From the sequence record NC_014260.1: 64,000 bases of DNA. One strand, given 5' to 3'. Every line of letters begins with the position of its first letter. Within the stretch, counting starts at the first letter, position 1. The notes beneath the pieces are model-generated. The model had not been told where the DNA came from. It ran no database searches and saw nothing but the letters and a program-made list of their open reading frames with translations. This DNA comes from Escherichia phage IME08. Positions 38,968 to 49,148 of this stretch are shown one piece after another. The translations under genes were made by a program, and so were the position numbers.

Positions 38968-40527
38968 ATGAAAAAGAATGCATTAGTTCAAAAATGGTCC
39001 GCTCTGCTGGAAAACGAAGCTCTTCCTGAAATCGTTGGTGCTTCTAAACAAGCTATCATCGCTAAAATTTTCGAAAACCAGGAACAAGACATCCTGACTG
39101 CTCCAGAATATCGTGACGAAAAAATCTCCGAAGCATTTGGTTCTTTCCTGACTGAAGCTGAAATCGGTGGTGACCACGGTTATGATGCTACCAATATCGC
39201 AGCTGGCCAGACCTCTGGTGCTGTAACTCAGATTGGGCCGGCAGTAATGGGTATGGTTCGTCGTGCTATTCCTCATCTGATTGCTTTTGATATTTGTGGT
39301 GTTCAGCCTCTGAATAACCCTACTGGTCAGGTATTTGCACTGCGTGCAGTATACGGTAAAGACCCTATCGCTGCAGGCGCTAAAGAAGCTTTCCATCCGA
39401 TGTATGCTCCGAACGCTATGTTCTCTGGTCAGGGTGCTGCTGAAACTTTCGAAGCACTGGCTGCAAGCAAAGTTCTGGAAGTTGGTAAAATTTATTCTCA
39501 CTTCTTCGAAGCTACCGGTGCTGCACACTTCCAGGCTGTTGAAGCTGTGACCGTTGATGCAGGCGCTACTGATGCCGCTAAACTGGATGCTGCTGTTACC
39601 GCTCTGGTTGAAGCTGGTCAACTGGCTGAAATCGCTGAAGGTATGGCTACTTCTATCGCTGAACTTCAGGAAGGTTTCAACGGTTCTACCGATAACCCGT
39701 GGAACGAAATGGGCTTCCGCATCGACAAACAAGTTATCGAAGCTAAATCCCGTCAGCTGAAAGCAAGCTACTCTATCGAACTGGCACAGGACCTTCGTGC
39801 AGTACACGGTATGGATGCAGATGCTGAACTGTCCGGTATCCTTGCTACCGAAATTATGCTCGAAATCAACCGTGAAGTTATCGATTGGATTAACTACTCT
39901 GCACAGGTTGGTAAATCTGGTATGACCAACACCGTTGGCGCTAAAGCTGGTGTGTTTGACTTCCAGGACCCGATTGATATCCGTGGTGCTCGTTGGGCCG
40001 GTGAGAGCTTTAAAGCCCTTCTGTTCCAGATTGATAAAGAAGCAGCCGAAATCGCTCGTCAGACCGGTCGTGGTGCTGGTAACTTCATCATCGCTTCCCG
40101 TAACGTAGTTAACGTACTGGCTGCAGTTGATACTTCTGTAAGTTATGCAGCTCAAGGTTTGGGTCAGGGTTTCAACGTTGACACAACCAAAGCAGTATTT
40201 GCCGGTGTTCTTGGTGGTAAATATCGTGTTTACATCGACCAGTATGCTCGTTCCGATTACTTCACCATCGGTTATAAAGGTTCTAACGAAATGGACGCAG
40301 GTATCTACTATGCTCCGTACGTTGCACTGACTCCGCTGCGTGGTTCCGATCCGAAGAACTTCCAACCGGTAATGGGCTTCAAAACTCGTTACGGTATCGG
40401 TATTAACCCGTTCGCTGACCCAGCTGCTCAGGCGCCTACCAAACGTATTCAGAATGGTATGCCTGACATCGTTAACAGCCTCGGTCTGAATGGTTACTTC
40501 CGTCGCGTTTACGTTAAGGGAATTTGA
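38968..40527 (+). CDS. 23: gp23 major capsid protein
   Basis: 519 aa vs T4 521 aa; position. Confidence 0.95.
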   Translation: MKKNALVQKWSALLENEALPEIVGASKQAIIAKIFENQEQDILTAPEYRDEKISEAFGSFLTEAEIGGDHGYDATNIAAGQTSGAVTQIGPAVMGMVRRAIPHLIAFDICGVQPLNNPTGQVFALRAVYGKDPIAAGAKEAFHPMYAPNAMFSGQGAAETFEALAASKVLEVGKIYSHFFEATGAAHFQAVEAVTVDAGATDAAKLDAAVTALVEAGQLAEIAEGMATSIAELQEGFNGSTDNPWNEMGFRIDKQVIEAKSRQLKASYSIELAQDLRAVHGMDADAELSGILATEIMLEINREVIDWINYSAQVGKSGMTNTVGAKAGVFDFQDPIDIRGARWAGESFKALLFQIDKEAAEIARQTGRGAGNFIIASRNVVNVLAAVDTSVSYAAQGLGQGFNVDTTKAVFAGVLGGKYRVYIDQYARSDYFTIGYKGSNEMDAGIYYAPYVALTPLRGSDPKNFQPVMGFKTRYGIGINPFADPAAQAPTKRIQNGMPDIVNSLGLNGYFRRVYVKGI

Positions 40528-40557
40528 TAACATAAGTTATTAATTCTTAAATTATTT

Positions 40558-40575
40558 GGGAGACTTCGGTCTCCC
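40558..40575. terminator. bidirectional stem-loop between gene 23 and segD-like gene
   Basis: GGGAGAC-UUCG-GUCUCCC between convergent genes. Confidence 0.65.
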
Positions 40576-40585
40576 ATTCTTGTTT

Positions 40586-41257
40586 CTATAACTTATAGCA
40601 ATCGTCAAATTGAGGCCTTGTTTCTTTAATCCAATTACGAATGGTAGCTCCGGTAACATTAAAAAATTCGGCGGCGGTTTCGTATCTGTCAAATCTATAT
40701 CCTTTAATCATTATATCAACAAATACAAATTTCTTACCTTTATTAGAGTTCTCTCTAATTTTGGCTTTATGTTCTTCCGATAGTTTCCTACCTTTAAGAT
40801 GAGAATCCCTATTCTCATAAAACTTTTTATTAGCTATAGATTTGTTTTCTCGGTGCTCTTTGGATTCTTTAGAACCTGTTTTCGATTTAGACATTTTGGC
40901 CCTTACTTCCTTGGTCATACCTGCCTTGGTCTTTTCGGATAACATCTCACGATACCCAGGTTCCTGTAAAGCTACTATAACAGGATTACCCTTACCACCT
41001 AAAGCTGCATTATAAGTATCTGTTCTCATAACAAAAGCCTCGTCAACTAGTTCGGCTTCCTTAGCATACATCTCTTCAGATGTTTCGAAATTGAAAAGGA
41101 TTTCCTTTTTAAAATTCTCTAAGCCGTATTTCTTTATGGATTTTACTATGTTAACCCCGGAGCCCATATAAGAATCATTAACATCTGTAGTGGCATGGGC
41201 TCCAACATAAATCTTGTTATTAATGAGATTGGTTATTTTGTAAATTAAATAATTCAT
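40586..41257 (-). CDS. GIY-YIG homing endonuclease, SegD-like
   Basis: N-terminal IYKITNLINNKIYVGAH; 223 aa; sits between genes 23 and 24 as T4 segD does. Confidence 0.8.
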   Translation of the reverse strand: MNYLIYKITNLINNKIYVGAHATTDVNDSYMGSGVNIVKSIKKYGLENFKKEILFNFETSEEMYAKEAELVDEAFVMRTDTYNAALGGKGNPVIVALQEPGYREMLSEKTKAGMTKEVRAKMSKSKTGSKESKEHRENKSIANKKFYENRDSHLKGRKLSEEHKAKIRENSNKGKKFVFVDIMIKGYRFDRYETAAEFFNVTGATIRNWIKETRPQFDDCYKL

Positions 41258-41260
41258 ATT

Positions 41261-41527
41261 TTACGCTGCTTTGACACGACGGTTGATGATATCACGGAAG
41301 TCAATACGATTTTCTTGGATTTTCAGCCAGTTACCAGATTTGTCTTTGGTATGGGTAGAGTATTCACCGTTCCACCAGAAGTCGGTAGCATAAGCCATGG
41401 CTTCGTATTTCTTAACTAGTGCATTCACTGCATTACCGTTAGGATTGGAACCATATTTTTCTACCAGGGCTTTGATGTCTTTATCAAGAGCGGAAAGAGT
41501 AGTACGAATAAAGTTTAACTTGTTCAT
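41261..41527 (-). CDS. hypothetical protein with its own early-type promoter
   Basis: ORF track 41261..41542; first ATG lies inside the SD, so start moved to 41527. Confidence 0.5.
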   Translation of the reverse strand: MNKLNFIRTTLSALDKDIKALVEKYGSNPNGNAVNALVKKYEAMAYATDFWWNGEYSTHTKDKSGNWLKIQENRIDFRDIINRRVKAA

Positions 41528-41556
41528 TTTTAATCTCCTCATGTTTTGATAGGTCT

Positions 41557-41592: not shown

Positions 41593-41600
41593 TATAAATA
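41593..41600 (+). promoter_or_regulatory. late promoter TATAAATA (gene 24)
   Basis: Exact octamer. Confidence 0.6.
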
Positions 41601-41628: not shown

Positions 41629-42909
41629 ATGGCAAAGATTAACGAATTACTGCGCGAGTCAACAACTACTTCTAGCAACTCATTGGGTCGCCCTAATCTT
41701 GTTGCTTTGACCCGTGCTACAACCAAATTGATTTACCGTGATATTATTGCTGAACAACGTACTAGCCAGCCTATTGCTGCATTGTATGGTGTCAAATATC
41801 TTACCCCTGATAATGAATTCAGTTTCCAAACTGGTGCTGTTTATGGCGGTGAAGTTGGTTCTAAAGACCGTGAAACTATCCCAGAACTCACAGATAAGGC
41901 CCAGGCGATTGCCAAGGGTGAATATTTCAAGTATCAGAATATTGTTTATAAGGCTCTTCAAGCAAGCCCACTCGCATCCACTAGCGCTACAGAATTGGCT
42001 GATGCCCTTCAAGAAGGTTTGGTGTCATTAACATGTCGTCTGGTTCCTGATGCGGCTCACACAGAGAAATTCGAAGCAGGTGATGTTGAAATTAGCAATG
42101 CAGTATTCCAGGTTAATAAATGGAACGCACCTGTTAAGTCTCGTAAACTTAAAACCGCTTTGACTGTAGAACTAGCCCAAGACATGGAATCCAATGGCTT
42201 CGACGCCCCTGCATTCTTAGAAGACCTCCTGGCTACAGTAATGGCAGATGAAATTAATAAAGACGTTCTGCAGTCTCTAATAACTGTATCTAAACGCTAT
42301 AAAGTTACCGGTGTATCTGATAACGGTATTGTCGATTTGTCTTATGACAGTGCTCCGGAATCTGCACGTAAACTTTATGAAATGGTTTGTGAGATGAATT
42401 CTGAAATTCAGAAAACCACTTCTTATTCAGGTACGTTTGTTGTCGCATCTAGTCGTGTAGCTGCAATGCTTGCTGGTTCAGGTTGGTTGAAACATAAACC
42501 AGAAGATGAAGCTTGGCTCCCAGAAACCGCTTATGGTTATTTGATTAACGGATTGCCTGTATTCTGTGATGTTAATAGTCCTTTAGATTATGTTATCGTG
42601 GGCGTTAAAGAAGATTACGGCGGTAATGAAGTGGTTGGTTCTATTTTCTATGCTCCGTATACCGAAGGTCTGGATTTAGACGACCAAGAACATGTTGGTG
42701 CCTATAAAGTTATTGTAGACCCTGATAGTTTGCAACCGGCTATTTCTCTGATGGTTCGTTATGCACTTTCAGCAAACCCATATACCGTTGCTAAAGATGA
42801 TAAAGAAGCTCGTGTTATAGACGCAACTAATATGGATTTAATGGCAGGGCAGAGTAACATGTCTTATCTGCTTGGTGTTAAACTTCCTCCAATTATTTAC
42901 GAGGCATAA
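41629..42909 (+). CDS. 24: gp24 capsid vertex protein
   Basis: Collinear match to T4 gp24 (MAKINELLRESTTT, KSRKLKT..TVELAQD, NPYTVAKD.KEAR); TATAAATA upstream. Confidence 0.95.
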   Translation: MAKINELLRESTTTSSNSLGRPNLVALTRATTKLIYRDIIAEQRTSQPIAALYGVKYLTPDNEFSFQTGAVYGGEVGSKDRETIPELTDKAQAIAKGEYFKYQNIVYKALQASPLASTSATELADALQEGLVSLTCRLVPDAAHTEKFEAGDVEISNAVFQVNKWNAPVKSRKLKTALTVELAQDMESNGFDAPAFLEDLLATVMADEINKDVLQSLITVSKRYKVTGVSDNGIVDLSYDSAPESARKLYEMVCEMNSEIQKTTSYSGTFVVASSRVAAMLAGSGWLKHKPEDEAWLPETAYGYLINGLPVFCDVNSPLDYVIVGVKEDYGGNEVVGSIFYAPYTEGLDLDDQEHVGAYKVIVDPDSLQPAISLMVRYALSANPYTVAKDDKEARVIDATNMDLMAGQSNMSYLLGVKLPPIIYEA

Positions 42910-44193
42910 ATGAAAAAGATTAATGCATTAATACAAGAATCAACTTTGACGGCGGCCAACCAGGTCGCCCGTCCTAATCTTCTTTCATATACCCAGGCAA
43001 CTAATAAAAGAATTTTTAAAGCCCTTGTTGCTGAACAAAAAACTACTCAACCTGTTGCAGCATTATATGGTGTCCGTGTTTTAAACCCAGACGATAAAAT
43101 GACTTATCTCGGCGGAGCCACTTTTGCAGGCGAAATTGGTATGTTCGAACGTAAAAACATTCCTGAATTCACCGATAAAGACGAAGCATATGCTGTTGGT
43201 GATATGTTCCAATTCGAAAGTGTGGTTTTCAAGGTATTAGAAGCTTCTCCGTTTGCAGGAACAACTGAAACCGATTTGGGCGAAGTTATTTCAGAAGCTA
43301 TTGCCGCAGGCCATATTCGTATGATGTCTGATGCAGCCTTTACCAATAAATTTGAAAAAGGCCATCCTGAGATTGCTGAAGCAGGATTCCGTATTGATAA
43401 GTGGCAGACTGAAGTTAAATCGCGTAAACTTAAAACTTCTTTGACTGTAGAACTGGCCCAGGATTTAGAATCCAACGGGTTTAATGCACCAGACTTTATA
43501 GACAATATTTTGGCTATTCAAATGGCCGAAGAAATTAATAAAGACGTATTACAGTCCTTAATTACGGTAAGTTCTCGTTTTAAAGTCCAAGGAGTTTCCG
43601 AGAAAGGCGTCTTGAACTTAACAGACCCACAATATGATAACGCCCAAGACCGAGCGCGTACCTTGTATTACTATATGTGTGAAATGAATTCTGCTGTTCA
43701 ACGCCAGACTTCGTTTGCAGGTACTTATGCAGTAGCTTCTTCTCGTTGCGCCGCTATTTTAGCTGCATCCGGTTGGGTTGAGAAAAAAGAAGACCAAGAC
43801 GAATTAGCTTATGGCATATTAAAGAACGGTCTACCACTTTATGCTGATATGAATAGTCCGTGTGATTATGTTATTGTCGGTGTAAATGCTCAGATGGGTG
43901 AAGGGCAGACGGTCGCATCTTTGTATTATGCGCCTTATACGGAAGGGCTCGAAGAAGTTGATGATGAAGGTGATACTTCAGTAGGTGAATTCAAGGTTAT
44001 TGTAGACCCAGATTCATTGCAACCTACCATATCTTTATTGGCTCGGTATGCATTGACTGCGAATCCTTATACCGTCGCTAAAGACGACAAAGAAGCTCGT
44101 ATTATTGACGGTGCGGATATGGACAAAATGGCTAATCAAAGTCAATTGAGTTCTTATCTTGGTGTTAAACTTCCTCCACTTGAAAAAAGCTAA
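42910..44193 (+). CDS. gp24 paralog (second vertex-protein copy)
   Basis: 427 aa; same conserved blocks as gp24 but diverged; starts 1 nt after gp24 stop. Confidence 0.85.
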   Translation: MKKINALIQESTLTAANQVARPNLLSYTQATNKRIFKALVAEQKTTQPVAALYGVRVLNPDDKMTYLGGATFAGEIGMFERKNIPEFTDKDEAYAVGDMFQFESVVFKVLEASPFAGTTETDLGEVISEAIAAGHIRMMSDAAFTNKFEKGHPEIAEAGFRIDKWQTEVKSRKLKTSLTVELAQDLESNGFNAPDFIDNILAIQMAEEINKDVLQSLITVSSRFKVQGVSEKGVLNLTDPQYDNAQDRARTLYYYMCEMNSAVQRQTSFAGTYAVASSRCAAILAASGWVEKKEDQDELAYGILKNGLPLYADMNSPCDYVIVGVNAQMGEGQTVASLYYAPYTEGLEEVDDEGDTSVGEFKVIVDPDSLQPTISLLARYALTANPYTVAKDDKEARIIDGADMDKMANQSQLSSYLGVKLPPLEKS

Positions 44194-44205: not shown

Positions 44206-44412
44206 ATGGTAGATGAAACCCTGTTTGGTCATGACGGAAGAGGCAACTTTAGTGGCAAATCCTTAATTCAGCCAGAAGAGTCTATTATAATTCCGTTTTC
44301 GAACATCAGAATTTCTACAGAAAAGATAAAGTTAAATGAAGTTGAAGTTAACAATTTAGCAAAAAGTATTTTAGAATCAACAACCCAAGAAGAGGTTCAT
44401 AGTGTGTTTTAG
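44206..44412 (+). CDS. 68-aa ORF, likely N-terminal segment of the collagen-like protein
   Basis: ATG with SD aggaga; ends HSVF-TAG in a T4 run; LFGHDGRG motif shared with mini-ORF at 47032. Confidence 0.5.
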
Positions 44413-45602
44413 GAATAAACAATTCCCAGATAGAGCCAATAGAGGGTCCGCCGGGCCCTCAAGGAGACCCGGGCCCACAAGGTATTCAAGGCCCGCCCGG
44501 CCCTCAAGGAGACCAAGGTCCACAAGGTATTCAAGGCCTTAAAGGAGATAAAGGAGATACAGGTCCACAAGGTATTCAGGGCCTACAAGGACCCAAAGGA
44601 CCTAAAGGAGACCAGGGTCCACAAGGCATTCAAGGGCCTATAGGTCCTATAGGTCCCGCAGGGCTAATATGGAAAGGAGAATGGGATGTAGATACACTTT
44701 ACTCTGTCGATGATGCTGTTGGATATGCAGGTGCATCATATTTTTGTATAGCCGAAAATACCGGTAATATACCCACAGAATCGCCGGAAAACTGGGCCTT
44801 ATTAGCATCGCAAGGAGCTAGAGGAGAATCAGGGGCCCAGGGCCTACAAGGACCCAAAGGGGATAAAGGAGATACGGGTCTTCAAGGTATTCAAGGACCC
44901 AAAGGGGATAAAGGAGATACAGGTCTTCAAGGACCTATAGGGCCTATAGGACCTAAAGGAGACCAGGGTCCTCAAGGTTCTAGAGGTATTCAAGGTATTC
45001 AAGGTCCCCAAGGAGACCAGGGCCCACAAGGTTCTAGAGGTATTCAAGGTATTCAAGGACCTCAAGGAGACCAAGGTCCGCAAGGCCTTCAAGGACCCCA
45101 AGGAGATAAAGGAGAGGATGGATTCGGAATTGATTCTAAAATAAGTGGGGTATATAAAATTCCTGCATCCGGAACCAAAGGACAATTTTATATAAACTTA
45201 CCTGGGGCAGGTGGTCTTAGATTGATTGTATCAACGGCTGGGACAGGTAATGCTGTTAAAATAGGATACGGAGGTAACTCTAGCACTGTTCAAAGAACAT
45301 TTACTATAGGATATAATTTAACAGCTAATTATACCGATTTGGCAAAAATAAAAACCGGTAGGATAAATTATACAGGGTATACTTCGGTTTCATATAGTAG
45401 CGATACAACGGCTCTAGTCGGATATGGGGATATGTATACAGCAATAGCCTCTAATAAAGATACTTTAGATTCATGGCATATAGTAATATCAGGCGTAGTG
45501 GCAAAATCATCTGCTTCGGCCACTGATGGAAGATTACTTATATCTGTAACTAAAGTTTTTGATTCCGAAACTCAACAGATTCAAACAGGTGAAATATATT
45601 AA
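44403..45602 (+). CDS. collagen-like fiber protein with embedded carbohydrate-binding-like motif; no in-frame start, -1 frame relative to 44206 ORF
   Basis: About 400 open codons with two G-X-Y blocks, a W...Y..D.V.Y.G..Y.C...TG..P....P..W motif and a globular C-terminus; first usable start is TTG at 45222. Confidence 0.55.
44445..45122 (+). repeat. collagen-like G-X-Y triplet repeat region, two blocks
   Basis: Read directly: [16 protein letters not shown]... and [19 protein letters not shown]... Confidence 0.85.
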
Positions 45603-45608
45603 AACATA

Positions 45609-45626
45609 AAGGGCCGCAAGGCCCTT
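45609..45626. terminator. bidirectional stem-loop between collagen-like gene and rnlB
   Basis: AAGGGCC-GCAA-GGCCCUU between convergent genes. Confidence 0.65.
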
Positions 45627-47115: not shown

Positions 47116-47982
47116 ATGATTGCACTTAAAATAAATGGTCCTAGATATGAATTGGTTGGTAAGACTGTAACGTTGTATACCGCATTTGTATTACCAGCAG
47201 GTTTGACTCTAGATGATATAGAAATTAATTGGTATAAAAATAATGTCCATGTCCCACAACTTCCTATTGAAGACCCTTTTGAATTGAATTTATGGGATGT
47301 TGGATATCCGGCGGCAGGAACATTTTATGCAACTATAACAAACAAGAAAAGTGGTGAAATAACAAAGAGTAATGAAATAGAACTTGAAATAGGTGTCATT
47401 CCAAGAAGAGTAATCCTGGATATAAGCTCTAGGGAATTAATATATGCCGATATAGGAGAAACCGTTTCACTTCGCCCGTCGTGTAGAGTAGAACCTACTT
47501 ATGCCGTACGTGATTGTAGATGGTATAGAAATGGAGTAGAATTATCTAACGATGAAGATATTGATATAACAATAGATAGTTCTGATAAATTCGGTACATA
47601 CATGTTGAAATCTATAGCGACCTGCGAAGGAGCGTATATCCCTGCTTCTGAAGAACTTTTAGTTGAAATAAAACCTAGAGGGGGTGTATTGCAGTGCCCG
47701 TTCATATATGATAACGACCTTAATGCCTATTTACCATATGGCGGCGGAAGAAATGAATCTTATATGTGGATAGGTTGGTGGGTGTGGGACGAAATAAGAG
47801 AAGCCGTTAGATTAGGAGAAGATTGGACGTTGGATATAAACAACAGCCGTTACAAGTATAAATGTGAGTTACAAAAAGTAGCCGACCTTTTGTCTAAGTA
47901 TCATGAAGTAGAGATACAAGAATCTAGAAACGGATATATTCTGGGGCGTAAAGACTTGCTTTATGTTCCGCCTGTACCATAA
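47116..47982 (+). CDS. Hoc-like capsid decoration protein paralog (2 Ig-like domains + Hoc C-terminal domain)
   Basis: C-terminus YMWIGWWVWDEIR...EVEIQESRNGYI parallels Hoc capsid-binding domain; two N-terminal repeats of about 90 aa. Confidence 0.75.
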   Translation: MIALKINGPRYELVGKTVTLYTAFVLPAGLTLDDIEINWYKNNVHVPQLPIEDPFELNLWDVGYPAAGTFYATITNKKSGEITKSNEIELEIGVIPRRVILDISSRELIYADIGETVSLRPSCRVEPTYAVRDCRWYRNGVELSNDEDIDITIDSSDKFGTYMLKSIATCEGAYIPASEELLVEIKPRGGVLQCPFIYDNDLNAYLPYGGGRNESYMWIGWWVWDEIREAVRLGEDWTLDINNSRYKYKCELQKVADLLSKYHEVEIQESRNGYILGRKDLLYVPPVP

Positions 47983-48014: not shown

Positions 48015-49148
48015 TTAATAAACGTAATCGTAAATAATTCCAGCATCCAAAGCGGTTCTGTGAATAATTCTACCATTACGAGATTCCTGTACATCAACCT
48101 CCGGATAGTCAGTAATCATTTTTTGAAGAGTATAACGATGGAGATAGAAATCACTATCAGGGTCATCGGTTTTCCAGTCTTTGCCTTCAAGAGTCATTTT
48201 CTGGATTTCGTCCATAACCCACCAACCACACCAGATATAAGCTGAATTGCGAACTGGTAGCGGATGAACGTAAGGTAGTTCGCCCTCTGGAACTGGTGCG
48301 ACTTTAGCCGTGACTGTTACATTACCAGTTTTGGTAACAGTCGTAGGGTTATAATCGGCGGCCGAAACAACAGCAGAAACTTCAATAACCTGTGAACCTT
48401 CAGCGCTTGTGTCAATTACTAATGTATCTGTAGCACCCACAACAGGTGAACCGTCTTTCTTCCAAGAATAAGCAAAAGTGGCACCACTAGGCGCACCTGC
48501 TACGGTAGCTTTAAAAGAAGCCGGAGTTCCTTCAGGTACATTAATAGAGGCTGGCGTTAAATTAACAGAAACCCCAGACATTGTTTTCTTAACAAAAGAA
48601 ACCGTTACGCCTTTAGCAGCAGTTGCTGAACCGTATTCCGGAGAGGTAACAGTAACTTCACAATTCAAGGTATAATTTGCTTCGGCTGCTTCAGTTAGTG
48701 TAATAGTTTTAGAGGTTTGGCCTGAAATTACGGTGGTATTTCGTTTCCAAACATAATTAATTGTTGCACCAGCAGGAGCACCGGTTACATTAGCCGTAAC
48801 AACTTGGGATTGGCCGACTTCTTTAGAAACGGAAGTAGGGTCCAAAGCCAAAGAGATATCCATAGTTTTATTAGATACAGTAACTTCAAAGGTGTCTTCG
48901 GCTGTCTCAAGAGGACCCGCATCGCCAGGGTCAGAAGTTACTACTACTTTTATAACTTTCTTACCCGCAGGAGCAGCACCCGTATATCTCAAAACATTAG
49001 TGGTTTCTGGGTTAGCAGCTCCATCAACGGTCCATACATATGCAATGGTTCCACCTGTTACAACTGCGTCGGTTGCGGTAGCAGTGTAGTTAGCGCTTTC
49101 GCCTATTTTCATAGACGCTGCGCCGGCTATACTTACAGTAAAGGCCAT
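48015..49148 (-). CDS. hoc: Hoc highly immunogenic outer capsid protein
   Basis: 377 aa; C-terminal half near-identical to T4 Hoc (TGNVTVTAKVAP.PEGELPYVHPLP...WCGWWVMDEIQKMT). Confidence 0.95.
   Translation of the reverse strand: MAFTVSIAGAASMKIGESANYTATATDAVVTGGTIAYVWTVDGAANPETTNVLRYTGAAPAGKKVIKVVVTSDPGDAGPLETAEDTFEVTVSNKTMDISLALDPTSVSKEVGQSQVVTANVTGAPAGATINYVWKRNTTVISGQTSKTITLTEAAEANYTLNCEVTVTSPEYGSATAAKGVTVSFVKKTMSGVSVNLTPASINVPEGTPASFKATVAGAPSGATFAYSWKKDGSPVVGATDTLVIDTSAEGSQVIEVSAVVSAADYNPTTVTKTGNVTVTAKVAPVPEGELPYVHPLPVRNSAYIWCGWWVMDEIQKMTLEGKDWKTDDPDSDFYLHRYTLQKMITDYPEVDVQESRNGRIIHRTALDAGIIYDYVY

What the first reader, a model, noticed from the sequence alone, without database searches (positions are those of the whole stretch)
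41629..44193. Tandem duplication of the gene 24 vertex protein
Two adjacent ORFs (426 and 427 aa) both carry gp24 hallmark blocks (KSRKLKT..TVELAQD, NPYTVAKDDKEAR, LGVKLPP). The first is T4-like; the second is clearly diverged. T4 has one gene 24, itself an ancient duplicate of gene 23. Two vertex paralogs could mean mixed vertices or an alternative vertex type.
Basis: partly seen in the sequence, partly recalled or inferred. Interest (0 to 1): 0.5.

Follow-up and report, generated by a model that had tools for sequence, protein, structure and literature searches.

The report
Two capsid vertex genes in tandem
This T4-like coliphage carries two adjacent, intact genes for the protein that caps the corners of its head; the pair is real, ancient, conserved in several phage genera and already annotated in GenBank (JS98 genes 24a/24b), but what the second copy does has never been tested.

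Summary
Window 41629-42909 (24a, 426 aa) and 42910-44193 (24b, 427 aa) are abutting, intact gp24-type genes, 56% identical to each other. The window is a JS98-like coliphage (Dhakavirus; 98% to IME341). The JS98 GenBank record already names these genes 24a and 24b, and about 90 phage records carry the pair, so the feature is known by annotation.

24b is not a recent local copy. It belongs to a monophyletic family (bootstrap 100) about as old as the split between Acinetobacter-phage and enterobacterial-phage gp24, and it is not rate-accelerated. In 14 loci examined it always lies directly 3' of a canonical gp24 gene and never occurs alone.

Both copies are under strong purifying selection (dN/dS 0.02-0.10). 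Both keep the Glu10|Ser11 maturation site, and 24b models as a gp24 fold. 24b has no late promoter of its own and is translationally coupled to 24a.

Seven of its 14 fixed substitutions cluster in residues 26-68, the intra-pentamer contact segment in T4 (p=8e-4). The best reading is a specialised second vertex subunit, probably forming its own pentamers. Virion incorporation and placement are untested. Interest is modest.

The parts
38968..40527 (+). Gene 23 (major capsid protein, 519 aa). It is the distant paralogue of both vertex genes and forms the upstream flank of the vertex module.
   Evidence: ORF. It is 28% identical to 24a and 24b over the C-terminal ~250-284 residues. The JS98 record annotates the equivalent gene as gp23.
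40557..40576 (+). Terminator-like hairpin after gene 23. It separates the gene 23 transcript from the gene 24 unit.
   Evidence: Hairpin of 8 pairs (5 G-C) followed by a T-rich tail. This is a consensus match only.
41593..41600 (+). T4-type late promoter box TATAAATA. It starts 36 nt upstream of the 24a ATG.
   Evidence: 18 boxes in the window against 7.9 expected. The same box sits at -34 to -37 in 12 of 14 pair-bearing loci. That TATAAATA is the T4 late promoter consensus is established knowledge.
41629..42909 (+). Gene 24a, the canonical T4-type capsid vertex protein (426 aa).
   Evidence: - Sequence matches: 659 bits to PDB 1yue; 70% identical to T4 gp24; PF07068 at 331 bits.
- Selection: dN/dS 0.035-0.107.
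- Only one fixed difference from single-copy gp24.
42901..42904 (+). GAGG Shine-Dalgarno of 24b, embedded in the last codons of 24a. It lies 5 nt before the ATG, and the TAA stop of 24a abuts that ATG.
   Evidence: Sequence read. GAGG is conserved in Dhakavirus, Gaprivervirus and Kanagawavirus junctions. The stop-to-start spacing is -4 to +1 nt in all 14 loci.
42910..44193 (+). Gene 24b, the second, diverged vertex-protein paralogue (427 aa).
   Evidence: - Sequence matches: 503 bits to 1yue; PF07068 at 329 bits.
- Structure: AF2 model (pLDDT 75) best matches T4 gp24* 5vf3_a at TM 0.83-0.85, against 0.52-0.60 for gp23 chains.
- Phylogeny: monophyletic family, bootstrap 100.
- Selection: dN/dS 0.022-0.102.
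- Glu10/Ser11 invariant.
44206..45602 (+). Downstream gene on the same strand: a collagen-like, tail-fibre-like protein, split by a frameshift at the T-run 44407-44410. It is not part of the duplication but probably shares the late transcript.
   Evidence: No terminator lies between 24b and this gene.
45609..45626 (.). Bidirectional terminator-like hairpin between the collagen-like gene and the convergent rnlB. It is the probable 3' end of the 24a-24b late transcript.
   Evidence: 7 pairs, 5 G-C, found on both strands.

Best explanation
24a and 24b are an ancient, co-maintained pair of gp24-type capsid vertex proteins. 24a is the canonical T4-type vertex subunit and 24b is a specialised extra subunit.

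Proposed mechanism:
1. Both are made late in infection from one mRNA that starts at the late promoter at 41593. 24b is translated by coupling to 24a.
2. Both are trimmed by the prohead protease gp21 after Glu10.
3. Both are built into five-fold vertices of the prolate head.
4. 24b most probably assembles into its own homopentamers, which take a subset of the 11 non-portal vertices.

Shown here: gene integrity, family and fold membership, age of the lineage, invariable a-then-b synteny, purifying selection on both copies, conserved processing site, operon layout, and clustering of 24b-specific substitutions in the pentamer-contact segment.

Inferred, not shown: expression level, cleavage, incorporation into virions, homo- versus hetero-pentamers, and which vertices are occupied.
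For: - Integrity and selection: both ORFs are intact in every genome examined. dN/dS is 0.035-0.107 for 24a and 0.022-0.102 for 24b across 8 genomes of three genera. Of the aligned positions, 131 are universally conserved gp24 positions kept in 24b, and only one position conserved elsewhere is relaxed in 24b.
- Fold: both pass PF07068 with equal scores of 331 and 329 bits. The 24b model best matches capsid-embedded T4 gp24* (5vf3_a, TM 0.83-0.85, E=4e-50), well above gp23 chains. Its low-confidence segments (1-33, 67-71, 348-358) coincide with the flexible segments of T4 gp24 (PMC9546572).
- Processing site: Glu10 and Ser11 are invariant in 56 sequences, including all 24b types. T4 gp24 is cut by gp21 after residue 10 (PMC9958956 and PMC9546572).
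- Operon: a late box precedes 24a in 12 of 14 loci and none lies inside 24a. The stop-to-start gap is -4 to +1 nt in 14 of 14 loci. No terminator separates the genes.
- Age and co-inheritance: the 24b clade has bootstrap 100. Its distance to the outgroups equals that of 24a (0.99 vs 0.98), so the lineage is old and not accelerated. Core-versus-Erwinia divergence is similar for both copies, 0.40 for 24b and 0.49 for 24a.
- Never alone: 24b is always preceded by a canonical gp24 gene in 8 isolates and 6 metagenomic contigs.
- Specialisation: 24b has 14 fixed differences from all other gp24. Seven of these fall among the 23 co-conserved columns of residues 26-68, against 7 of 141 elsewhere (Fisher p=8e-4). 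In T4, residues 26-29 pair with the I-domain linker of the neighbouring subunit of the same pentamer, and I-linker 1 starts near residue 60 (PMC9546572). 24a of pair-bearing phages has only one conservative fixed change relative to single-copy gp24.
Against: - No experimental evidence was found that 24b is in virions. The open literature held nothing, and the JS98 genome paper could not be read.
- In T4 all 55 gp24* subunits are conformationally alike in all vertex classes (PMC9546572), so there is no known structural need for position-specific vertex proteins.
- Most Tevenvirinae, including close relatives with the same head shape, manage with one gene. One example is PEi20, which shares its genus with the pair-bearing Q7622.
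- The homopentamer inference rests on where substitutions cluster along the sequence. It does not rest on a modelled interface, since no multimer modelling or coordinates were available.
- The Shine-Dalgarno of 24b is weak in some lineages, so the amounts made may be unequal.
Confidence: 0.5

Rival explanations
1. Mixed vertices: 24a and 24b co-assemble into heteropentamers, in fixed or random ratios, at all 11 vertices. 24b would modulate vertex stability or surface chemistry.
For: - Tight translational coupling would deliver both subunits together.
- 24b is never found without 24a.
- The two copies sometimes move together between backbones. Q7622 has PEi20-like flanks but a Dhakavirus-like pair.
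- 131 shared conserved positions include most of the core of the fold.
Against: - The 24b-specific fixed substitutions concentrate in the segment that forms the subunit-subunit contact within a pentamer. That is what one expects if 24b pairs with itself.
- Five-fold vertices cannot hold a symmetric a/b alternation.
- Partners are not strictly co-inherited. The 24a of L014 is T4/Karamvirus-like, while its 24b belongs to the core family.
Confidence: 0.2
2. Alternative or insurance vertex protein: either copy can build all the vertices. The second copy is kept because host defences or different hosts and conditions disable or sense one of them.
For: - The vertex protein can be required for immune sensing. 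[quoted passage not shown]
- gp24 contributes to capsid resistance to acid, heat and proteases (PMC10580926), so variants could suit different environments.
- The vertex module is frequently exchanged between phage backbones.
Against: - Sensing of a trigger protein is dominant. Adding a second copy while still expressing the first would not hide it.
- Both genes lie in one coupled operon with no sign of separate regulation.
- Pure redundancy predicts frequent loss or decay of one copy, yet no pseudogenised copy was seen and 24b never stands alone.
- Ala380 is conserved in both copies.
Confidence: 0.13
3. 24b is not a shell subunit of the mature virion. It would act during assembly, for example by triggering gp21 protease activation or capping proheads transiently, or it would have some other non-structural role.
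For: In T4, attachment of gp24 to prohead vertices is thought to trigger protease activation (PMC9958956). A paralogue could therefore specialise in a transient step. No proteomic evidence of 24b in particles was found.
Against: - The whole gp24 architecture is conserved, including the N-arm, I domain, linkers and C-terminal strand that make capsid contacts.
- The maturation cleavage site is invariant.
- Conservation within the 24b family is as high as within canonical gp24 in all regions.
Confidence: 0.1
4. Decaying or neutral duplicate: 24b is a redundant copy drifting towards loss.
For: It is the more diverged copy relative to T4, and most relatives lack it.
Against: - dN/dS is 0.02-0.10, the same as 24a.
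- The gene is intact in about 90 records and across family members down to 66% identity.
- The family is very old.
- 16 positions are conserved only in 24b.
Confidence: 0.02

Closest known systems
T4 gp24 capsid vertex protein (PDB 1YUE, 5VF3, 7VS5/7VRT)
   Same: Both window proteins are full-length, colinear homologues of similar length (426 and 427 aa against 427). They share the Glu10|Ser11 processing site, the late promoter and the genomic position between gene 23 and rnlB. The fold is HK97 with an insertion domain.
   Different: T4 has a single copy. 24a is 70% identical to it and 24b only 56%. 24b carries 14 family-specific fixed substitutions, and most members have a 3-residue acidic insertion in the 347-360 loop.
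Annotated gene pairs 24a/24b of phages JS98 and JS10 (EF469154, EU863409); 'capsid vertex protein I/II' of VR5; 'head vertex protein I/II' of Salmonella phage CGG4-1; the S16 group
   Same: This is the same locus, order and spacing. The window's 24a-24b region is 97-98% identical in DNA to JS98 and IME341, and 24b is 99.5% identical in protein to that of IME341.
   Different: The pair itself does not differ. The window differs around it: it has a GIY-YIG endonuclease gene upstream, which JS98 lacks, and a collagen-like gene downstream, which JS98 and IME341 lack.
The older gp23-to-gp24 duplication of T4-like phages (major capsid protein giving rise to a dedicated vertex protein)
   Same: The principle is the same. 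A capsid-shell gene is duplicated next to its parent and one copy specialises (PMC9958956).
   Different: That event separated hexamer and pentamer formers, which are about 20-28% identical. Here both copies are pentamer-type proteins, 56% identical, and the division of labour is unknown.
Paired Hoc-like decoration genes in the same window (47116-47982 and 48015-49148)
   Same: This is another head-surface protein present as two diverged paralogues in this genome.
   Different: Hoc is a non-essential decoration protein, not a shell subunit. The second Hoc-like gene is absent from JS98 and IME341.

Membership tests
T4 gp24-type capsid vertex protein (Pfam PF07068 Gp23 family) | Sequence matches the family profile above the curated threshold | tested here: met
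   PF07068 scores 331.1 bits for 24a and 329.1 bits for 24b, against a cut-off of 24.4. Both match phrog_138, E=4e-132 and 2e-123.
T4 gp24-type capsid vertex protein (Pfam PF07068 Gp23 family) | gp24-type rather than gp23-type: end-to-end colinearity with T4 gp24, ~427 aa, no 65-residue gp23 propeptide | tested here: met
   Residues 1-424 align to 1yue residues 1-425 (24a) and 1-423 (24b), E=1.7e-197 and 5.3e-150. gp23 chains match only at about E=1e-11 over residues ~153-390.
T4 gp24-type capsid vertex protein (Pfam PF07068 Gp23 family) | HK97 fold with insertion domain; closest structure is gp24* | tested here: met
   24b AF2 model: pLDDT 75.1, pTM 0.72. Foldseek top hit is 5vf3_a at TM 0.83-0.85; gp23 chains score 0.52-0.60 and HK97 about 0.38. 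24a was not modelled; it is 70% identical to 1yue.
T4 gp24-type capsid vertex protein (Pfam PF07068 Gp23 family) | Prohead-protease (gp21) cleavage site after Glu10, in the context (L/I)-x-E|S | tested here: met
   24a has LRE|S and 24b has IQE|S. E10 and S11 are invariant in 56 sequences. Actual cleavage cannot be tested here.
T4 gp24-type capsid vertex protein (Pfam PF07068 Gp23 family) | Late gene located between gene 23 and rnlB | tested here: met
   TATAAATA lies at 41593-41600. Synteny matches T4 and JS98. 24b has no box of its own and depends on the 24a promoter.
T4 gp24-type capsid vertex protein (Pfam PF07068 Gp23 family) | Forms pentamers occupying the non-portal vertices of the virion | not testable with these tools
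   This needs virion proteomics or cryo-EM. No solved structure closer than T4 exists in the PDB copy.
Recent in-situ tandem duplication | The two copies are each other's closest relatives, with residual nucleotide identity | tested here: not met
   24a groups with T4, CC31 and others (bootstrap 98), while 24b forms a separate deep clade (bootstrap 100). Proportion of synonymous differences is 0.60-0.75, which is saturated. The longest shared nucleotide run is 21 nt. There is no rate acceleration.
Pseudogene / decaying duplicate | Frameshifts, stops or relaxed constraint (dN/dS near 1) | tested here: not met
   All copies are intact. dN/dS for 24b is 0.022-0.102. 16 positions are conserved only in the 24b family.

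The most novel reading that the evidence does not exclude
The two paralogues form distinct homopentamers that occupy geometrically non-equivalent vertices of the prolate head, for example the apical vertex opposite the portal versus the two rings of five. That would make these phages the first tailed phages known to use position-specific penton proteins. In some lineages the 24b vertices might additionally anchor the collagen-like fibre encoded immediately downstream.
Probability: 0.15. Interest if true: 0.7.

Novelty: already known. Interest (0 to 1): 0.3.

Why it matters
T4 is the reference system for how large prolate capsids are built, and its single gp24 is taken as the model of a dedicated vertex protein. 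A second vertex paralogue has been kept under strong selection across several genera of therapeutic-candidate phages (JS98-like coliphages, S16-like Salmonella phages). That implies these heads are built differently from T4 at their corners, or that the vertex does something more than close the shell.

The point bears on capsid stability, since gp24 is a major determinant of acid, heat and protease resistance (PMC10580926). It bears on immune sensing of vertex proteins (PMC13243611). It also bears on engineering T4-type capsids.

The feature itself is not new, because it has been annotated for years. The open question is functional, and it is directly testable with virion proteomics and vertex-focused cryo-EM.

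Tried and rejected
- Literature: ten full-text searches with many phrasings (JS98 + gp24 + duplication; 'two gp24'; gp24a/gp24b; 'vertex protein I/II'; genus names + proteomics) found no paper that discusses the duplication or reports both proteins in virions. Neither the JS98 genome paper (PMC2168658) nor the gp24 crystal-structure paper (PMC1129118) is held in the library. Proteomics papers that did turn up concern single-copy genera: Jiaodavirus and Morganella phage MP1.
- Recent duplication or gene conversion: rejected.
- Fast evolution as the cause of 24b's deep branch (long-branch artefact): rejected. 24b and 24a are equally distant from the outgroups.
- 24b as a stand-alone vertex gene: looked for in six metagenomic contigs chosen because no partner was obvious. 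All had a canonical gene directly upstream.
- Subfunctionalisation visible in 24a: rejected. Only one conservative fixed change was found.
- The Thoeris-escape position A380 as a difference between the copies: rejected. Ala is conserved in both.
- Exact placement of the 24b clade relative to Jiaodavirus, Tegunavirus and the Acinetobacter-phage gp24: unresolved (bootstrap 16-37, neighbour-joining only). I therefore cannot distinguish an ancient in-genome duplication followed by many losses from capture of a foreign gp24 next to the resident one.
- Interface analysis in three dimensions: not possible, because no coordinates or multimer prediction were available.
Full report
**Observation**

24a is 41629-42909 (426 aa) and 24b is 42910-44193 (427 aa), both on the + strand, with the TAA of 24a abutting the ATG of 24b. 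They are 56% identical and 76% similar over their full length (E=6e-180), and both carry the quoted motif blocks. Each aligns end to end with T4 gp24 (PDB 1yue): 659 bits for 24a and 503 bits for 24b. On a trimmed alignment that is 70% and 56% identity. Each resembles the window's own gp23 (38968-40527) only over the C-terminal ~250-284 residues, at 28% identity. Both pass Pfam PF07068 with practically equal scores of 331 and 329 bits.

**Identity of the genome and prior knowledge**

The region is 98% identical in DNA to Enterobacteria phage IME341 and 97% identical to JS98, both Dhakavirus. The JS98 GenBank record (EF469154) already names the genes 24a and 24b, 'gp24 head vertex protein'. JS10 does the same. 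VR5 uses 'capsid vertex protein I/II' and Salmonella phage CGG4-1 uses 'head vertex protein I/II'. About 90 records in the phage collection carry a 24b at 80% identity or more, out of roughly 1,400 records with a full-length gp24 homologue.

Pair-bearing phages include:
- Dhakavirus and Gaprivervirus (PSD2001)
- Kanagawavirus (Q7622)
- Gelderlandvirus (S16, STML-198, STP4-a, Melville, CGG4-1)
- the Erwinia phages Cronus, IT22 and FBB1

The feature is therefore known by annotation. In ten full-text searches I found no open paper that discusses it or reports both proteins in particles, and the JS98 genome paper is not in the library.

**24b is an old lineage, not a local copy of 24a**

I built a neighbour-joining tree of 94 representatives (420 columns, 200 bootstraps), rooted on Krischvirus, Biquartavirus and Slopekvirus gp24.
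- The 24b-type proteins form a clade with bootstrap 100 on a long stem (0.18).
- 24a lies inside a clade with bootstrap 98, together with T4, CC31, Merlin, PEi20 and others.
- The exact attachment point of the 24b clade is unresolved (bootstrap 16-37).

24b is no further from the outgroups than 24a is (0.99 vs 0.98), so its depth reflects age and not acceleration. Its distance to all enterobacterial gp24 (0.57-0.72) equals the distance between Acinetobacter-phage and enterobacterial-phage gp24. Synonymous sites between the paralogues are saturated (proportion of synonymous differences 0.60-0.75). The longest shared nucleotide run is 21 nt, so there is no gene conversion.

**Synteny and inheritance**

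I examined 8 isolates and 6 metagenomic contigs that span the whole 24b family, down to 66% identity. In all of them the 24b gene is immediately preceded by a canonical gp24 gene, between gene 23 and rnlB. The stop-to-start spacing is -4 to +1 nt. 24b was never found alone.

The core-versus-Erwinia divergence is similar for both copies (0.40 for 24b, 0.49 for 24a), which fits long co-inheritance. The module also moves between backbones:
- Contig L014 has a Jiaodavirus backbone (gp23 97% and RnlB 92% identical to pzk-kv19). It carries a pair where pzk-kv19 has a single gene.
- Q7622 has flanks like Edwardsiella phage PEi20 (88% and 88%) but a Dhakavirus-like pair (86% and 82%). PEi20 has a single gene.

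Recombination in the conserved flanks therefore adds, removes or swaps the vertex module. I cannot decide between one ancient duplication followed by many losses and capture of a foreign gp24 beside the resident one.

**Both copies are functional genes**

Pairwise dN/dS across eight genomes is 0.035-0.107 for 24a and 0.022-0.102 for 24b. The one outlier, 0.28, comes from a nearly identical pair with dS of 0.011.

Site-by-site comparison of the 24b family with all other gp24 gave these counts:
- 131 alignment columns are conserved at 90% or more with the same residue in both groups.
- 16 columns are conserved only in 24b.
- Only 1 column is conserved elsewhere and relaxed in 24b.

Glu10 and Ser11 are invariant in 56 sequences. 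In T4 the prohead protease gp21 removes the first 10 residues of gp24 (PMC9958956 and PMC9546572). A conserved processing site is hard to explain unless 24b enters proheads.

An AlphaFold2 model of 24b (pLDDT 75, pTM 0.72) best matches gp24* from the mature T4 capsid (5vf3_a, TM 0.83-0.85, E=4e-50). That is well above gp23 chains at TM 0.52-0.60. Its low-confidence stretches (1-33, 67-71, 348-358) are the same stretches that are flexible or disordered in T4 gp24.

**Expression design**

A T4-type late box, TATAAATA, lies at 41593-41600, starting 36 nt before the 24a ATG. The same box sits at -34 to -37 in 12 of 14 loci, and no box occurs inside 24a in any locus. 24b has a GAGG Shine-Dalgarno (42901-42904) inside the last codons of 24a. 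Terminator-like hairpins lie after gene 23 (40557-40576) and at 45609-45626, and none lies between or just after the vertex genes. The layout predicts one late mRNA with translational coupling. That is an inference from sequence.

**Where 24b differs**

Fourteen positions are fixed differently in 24b than in all other gp24 (T4 numbering): A26S, T32N, L34R, Y36F, K56R, Y57V, T68G, T204I, I261V, Y267F, L288V, K328N, E335Q and L415Y. Among columns conserved in both groups, 7 of 23 in residues 26-68 differ, against 7 of 141 elsewhere (Fisher p=8e-4). In the expanded T4 head, residues 26-29 form a parallel beta contact with an I-domain linker of the adjacent subunit of the same pentamer, and I-linker 1 begins near residue 60 (PMC9546572).

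Most 24b proteins also have a 3-residue insertion in the 347-360 loop, which makes the loop more acidic. By contrast, 24a of pair-bearing phages has only one conservative fixed change (L340I) relative to single-copy gp24. So 24a is the canonical vertex protein and 24b is the specialised one. Its signature lies in the subunit-subunit contact segment.

**Interpretation**

The best-supported reading is that both are structural vertex subunits, and that 24b forms its own pentamers at a subset of vertices (confidence about 0.5 overall; the homopentamer step is the weakest). The rivals are:
- heteropentamers (0.2)
- an alternative or insurance vertex protein linked to host range, environment or immune sensing (0.13). 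T6 gp24 A380V escapes type IV Thoeris (PMC13243611), but Ala380 is conserved in both copies and a second copy would not hide a dominant trigger.
- a non-virion assembly role (0.1)
- a decaying duplicate (0.02), effectively excluded

Two facts count against any positional model. All 55 gp24* subunits in T4 are conformationally alike, and close relatives manage with one gene.

**Verdict**

The feature is real and well conserved, but it is already annotated. The word 'duplication' misleads as to age and origin. The proposed functional consequences remain untested. Interest is modest (0.3). The open functional question is attractive and cheap to test by virion proteomics and vertex-focused cryo-EM.

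Noticed in passing
window 44206-45602 (+): A collagen-like, tail-fibre-like gene lies directly after 24b and is split by a frameshift. A 68-aa ORF (44206-44412) and a ~400-codon open frame (from 44403) would fuse into a 465-aa protein if the TTTT run at 44407-44410 had one more T. The fused protein aligns from residue 1, across the break, to intact homologues that follow 24b in FBB1-like contigs (E=1e-33 to 1e-36). Family matches are Pfam Collagen at 1e-28, a weak CBM_5_12 hit and phrog_5073 'tail fiber' at 1e-105. The DNA has no megablast match in the phage collection and is absent from JS98 and IME341. The break could be a sequencing error, a pseudogene or a slip site; this is undecided.
   Followed up: partly
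window 47116-47982 (+) and 48015-49148 (-): There are two Hoc-like head-decoration genes in convergent orientation. The extra 288-aa one (phrog_1149, E=2e-42) is absent from JS98 and IME341. It resembles small Hoc-like genes that follow the collagen-like gene in contigs L013, L017 and L019, so a 'collagen-like + small Hoc-like' cassette travels next to the vertex pair in the Erwinia-phage-like lineage.
   Followed up: partly
window 40586-41257 (-): A GIY-YIG/NUMOD3 homing-endonuclease-like gene (weak SegE_GIY-YIG and NUMOD3 hits) lies between gene 23 and gene 24. It is present at the same place in IME341, UP19 and T4 but absent from JS98. A mobile endonuclease at the edge of the vertex module could promote the module swaps seen between phage backbones.
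   Followed up: no
L014 (3224-5778) vs L003; L002 vs L020: The vertex module is mosaic. A contig with a Jiaodavirus backbone (gp23 97% and RnlB 92% identical to pzk-kv19) carries a 24a+24b pair in place of the single Jiaodavirus gene. Kanagawavirus Q7622 has PEi20-like flanks but a Dhakavirus-like pair, while PEi20 is single-copy.
   Followed up: yes
window 41261-41542 (-): A 93-aa ORF lies between the endonuclease gene and 24a, on the opposite strand, with no Pfam family. It is conserved as a 'hypothetical protein' in JS98, IME341, VR5 and UP19 but is absent from Kanagawavirus Q7622.
   Followed up: no
24a and 24b, T4 position 380: Ala380 is the residue whose change to Val lets T6 escape type IV Thoeris (PMC13243611). 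It is conserved in 96% of 24b-type and 97% of other gp24 sequences, so neither copy looks like a pre-adapted escape variant.
   Followed up: yes
protein P0041 (3,016-bp metagenomic contig): An orphan gp24 homologue on a long branch (0.27) attaches without support (bootstrap 16) next to the 24b clade. It may represent an unsampled intermediate lineage relevant to the origin of 24b.
   Followed up: no
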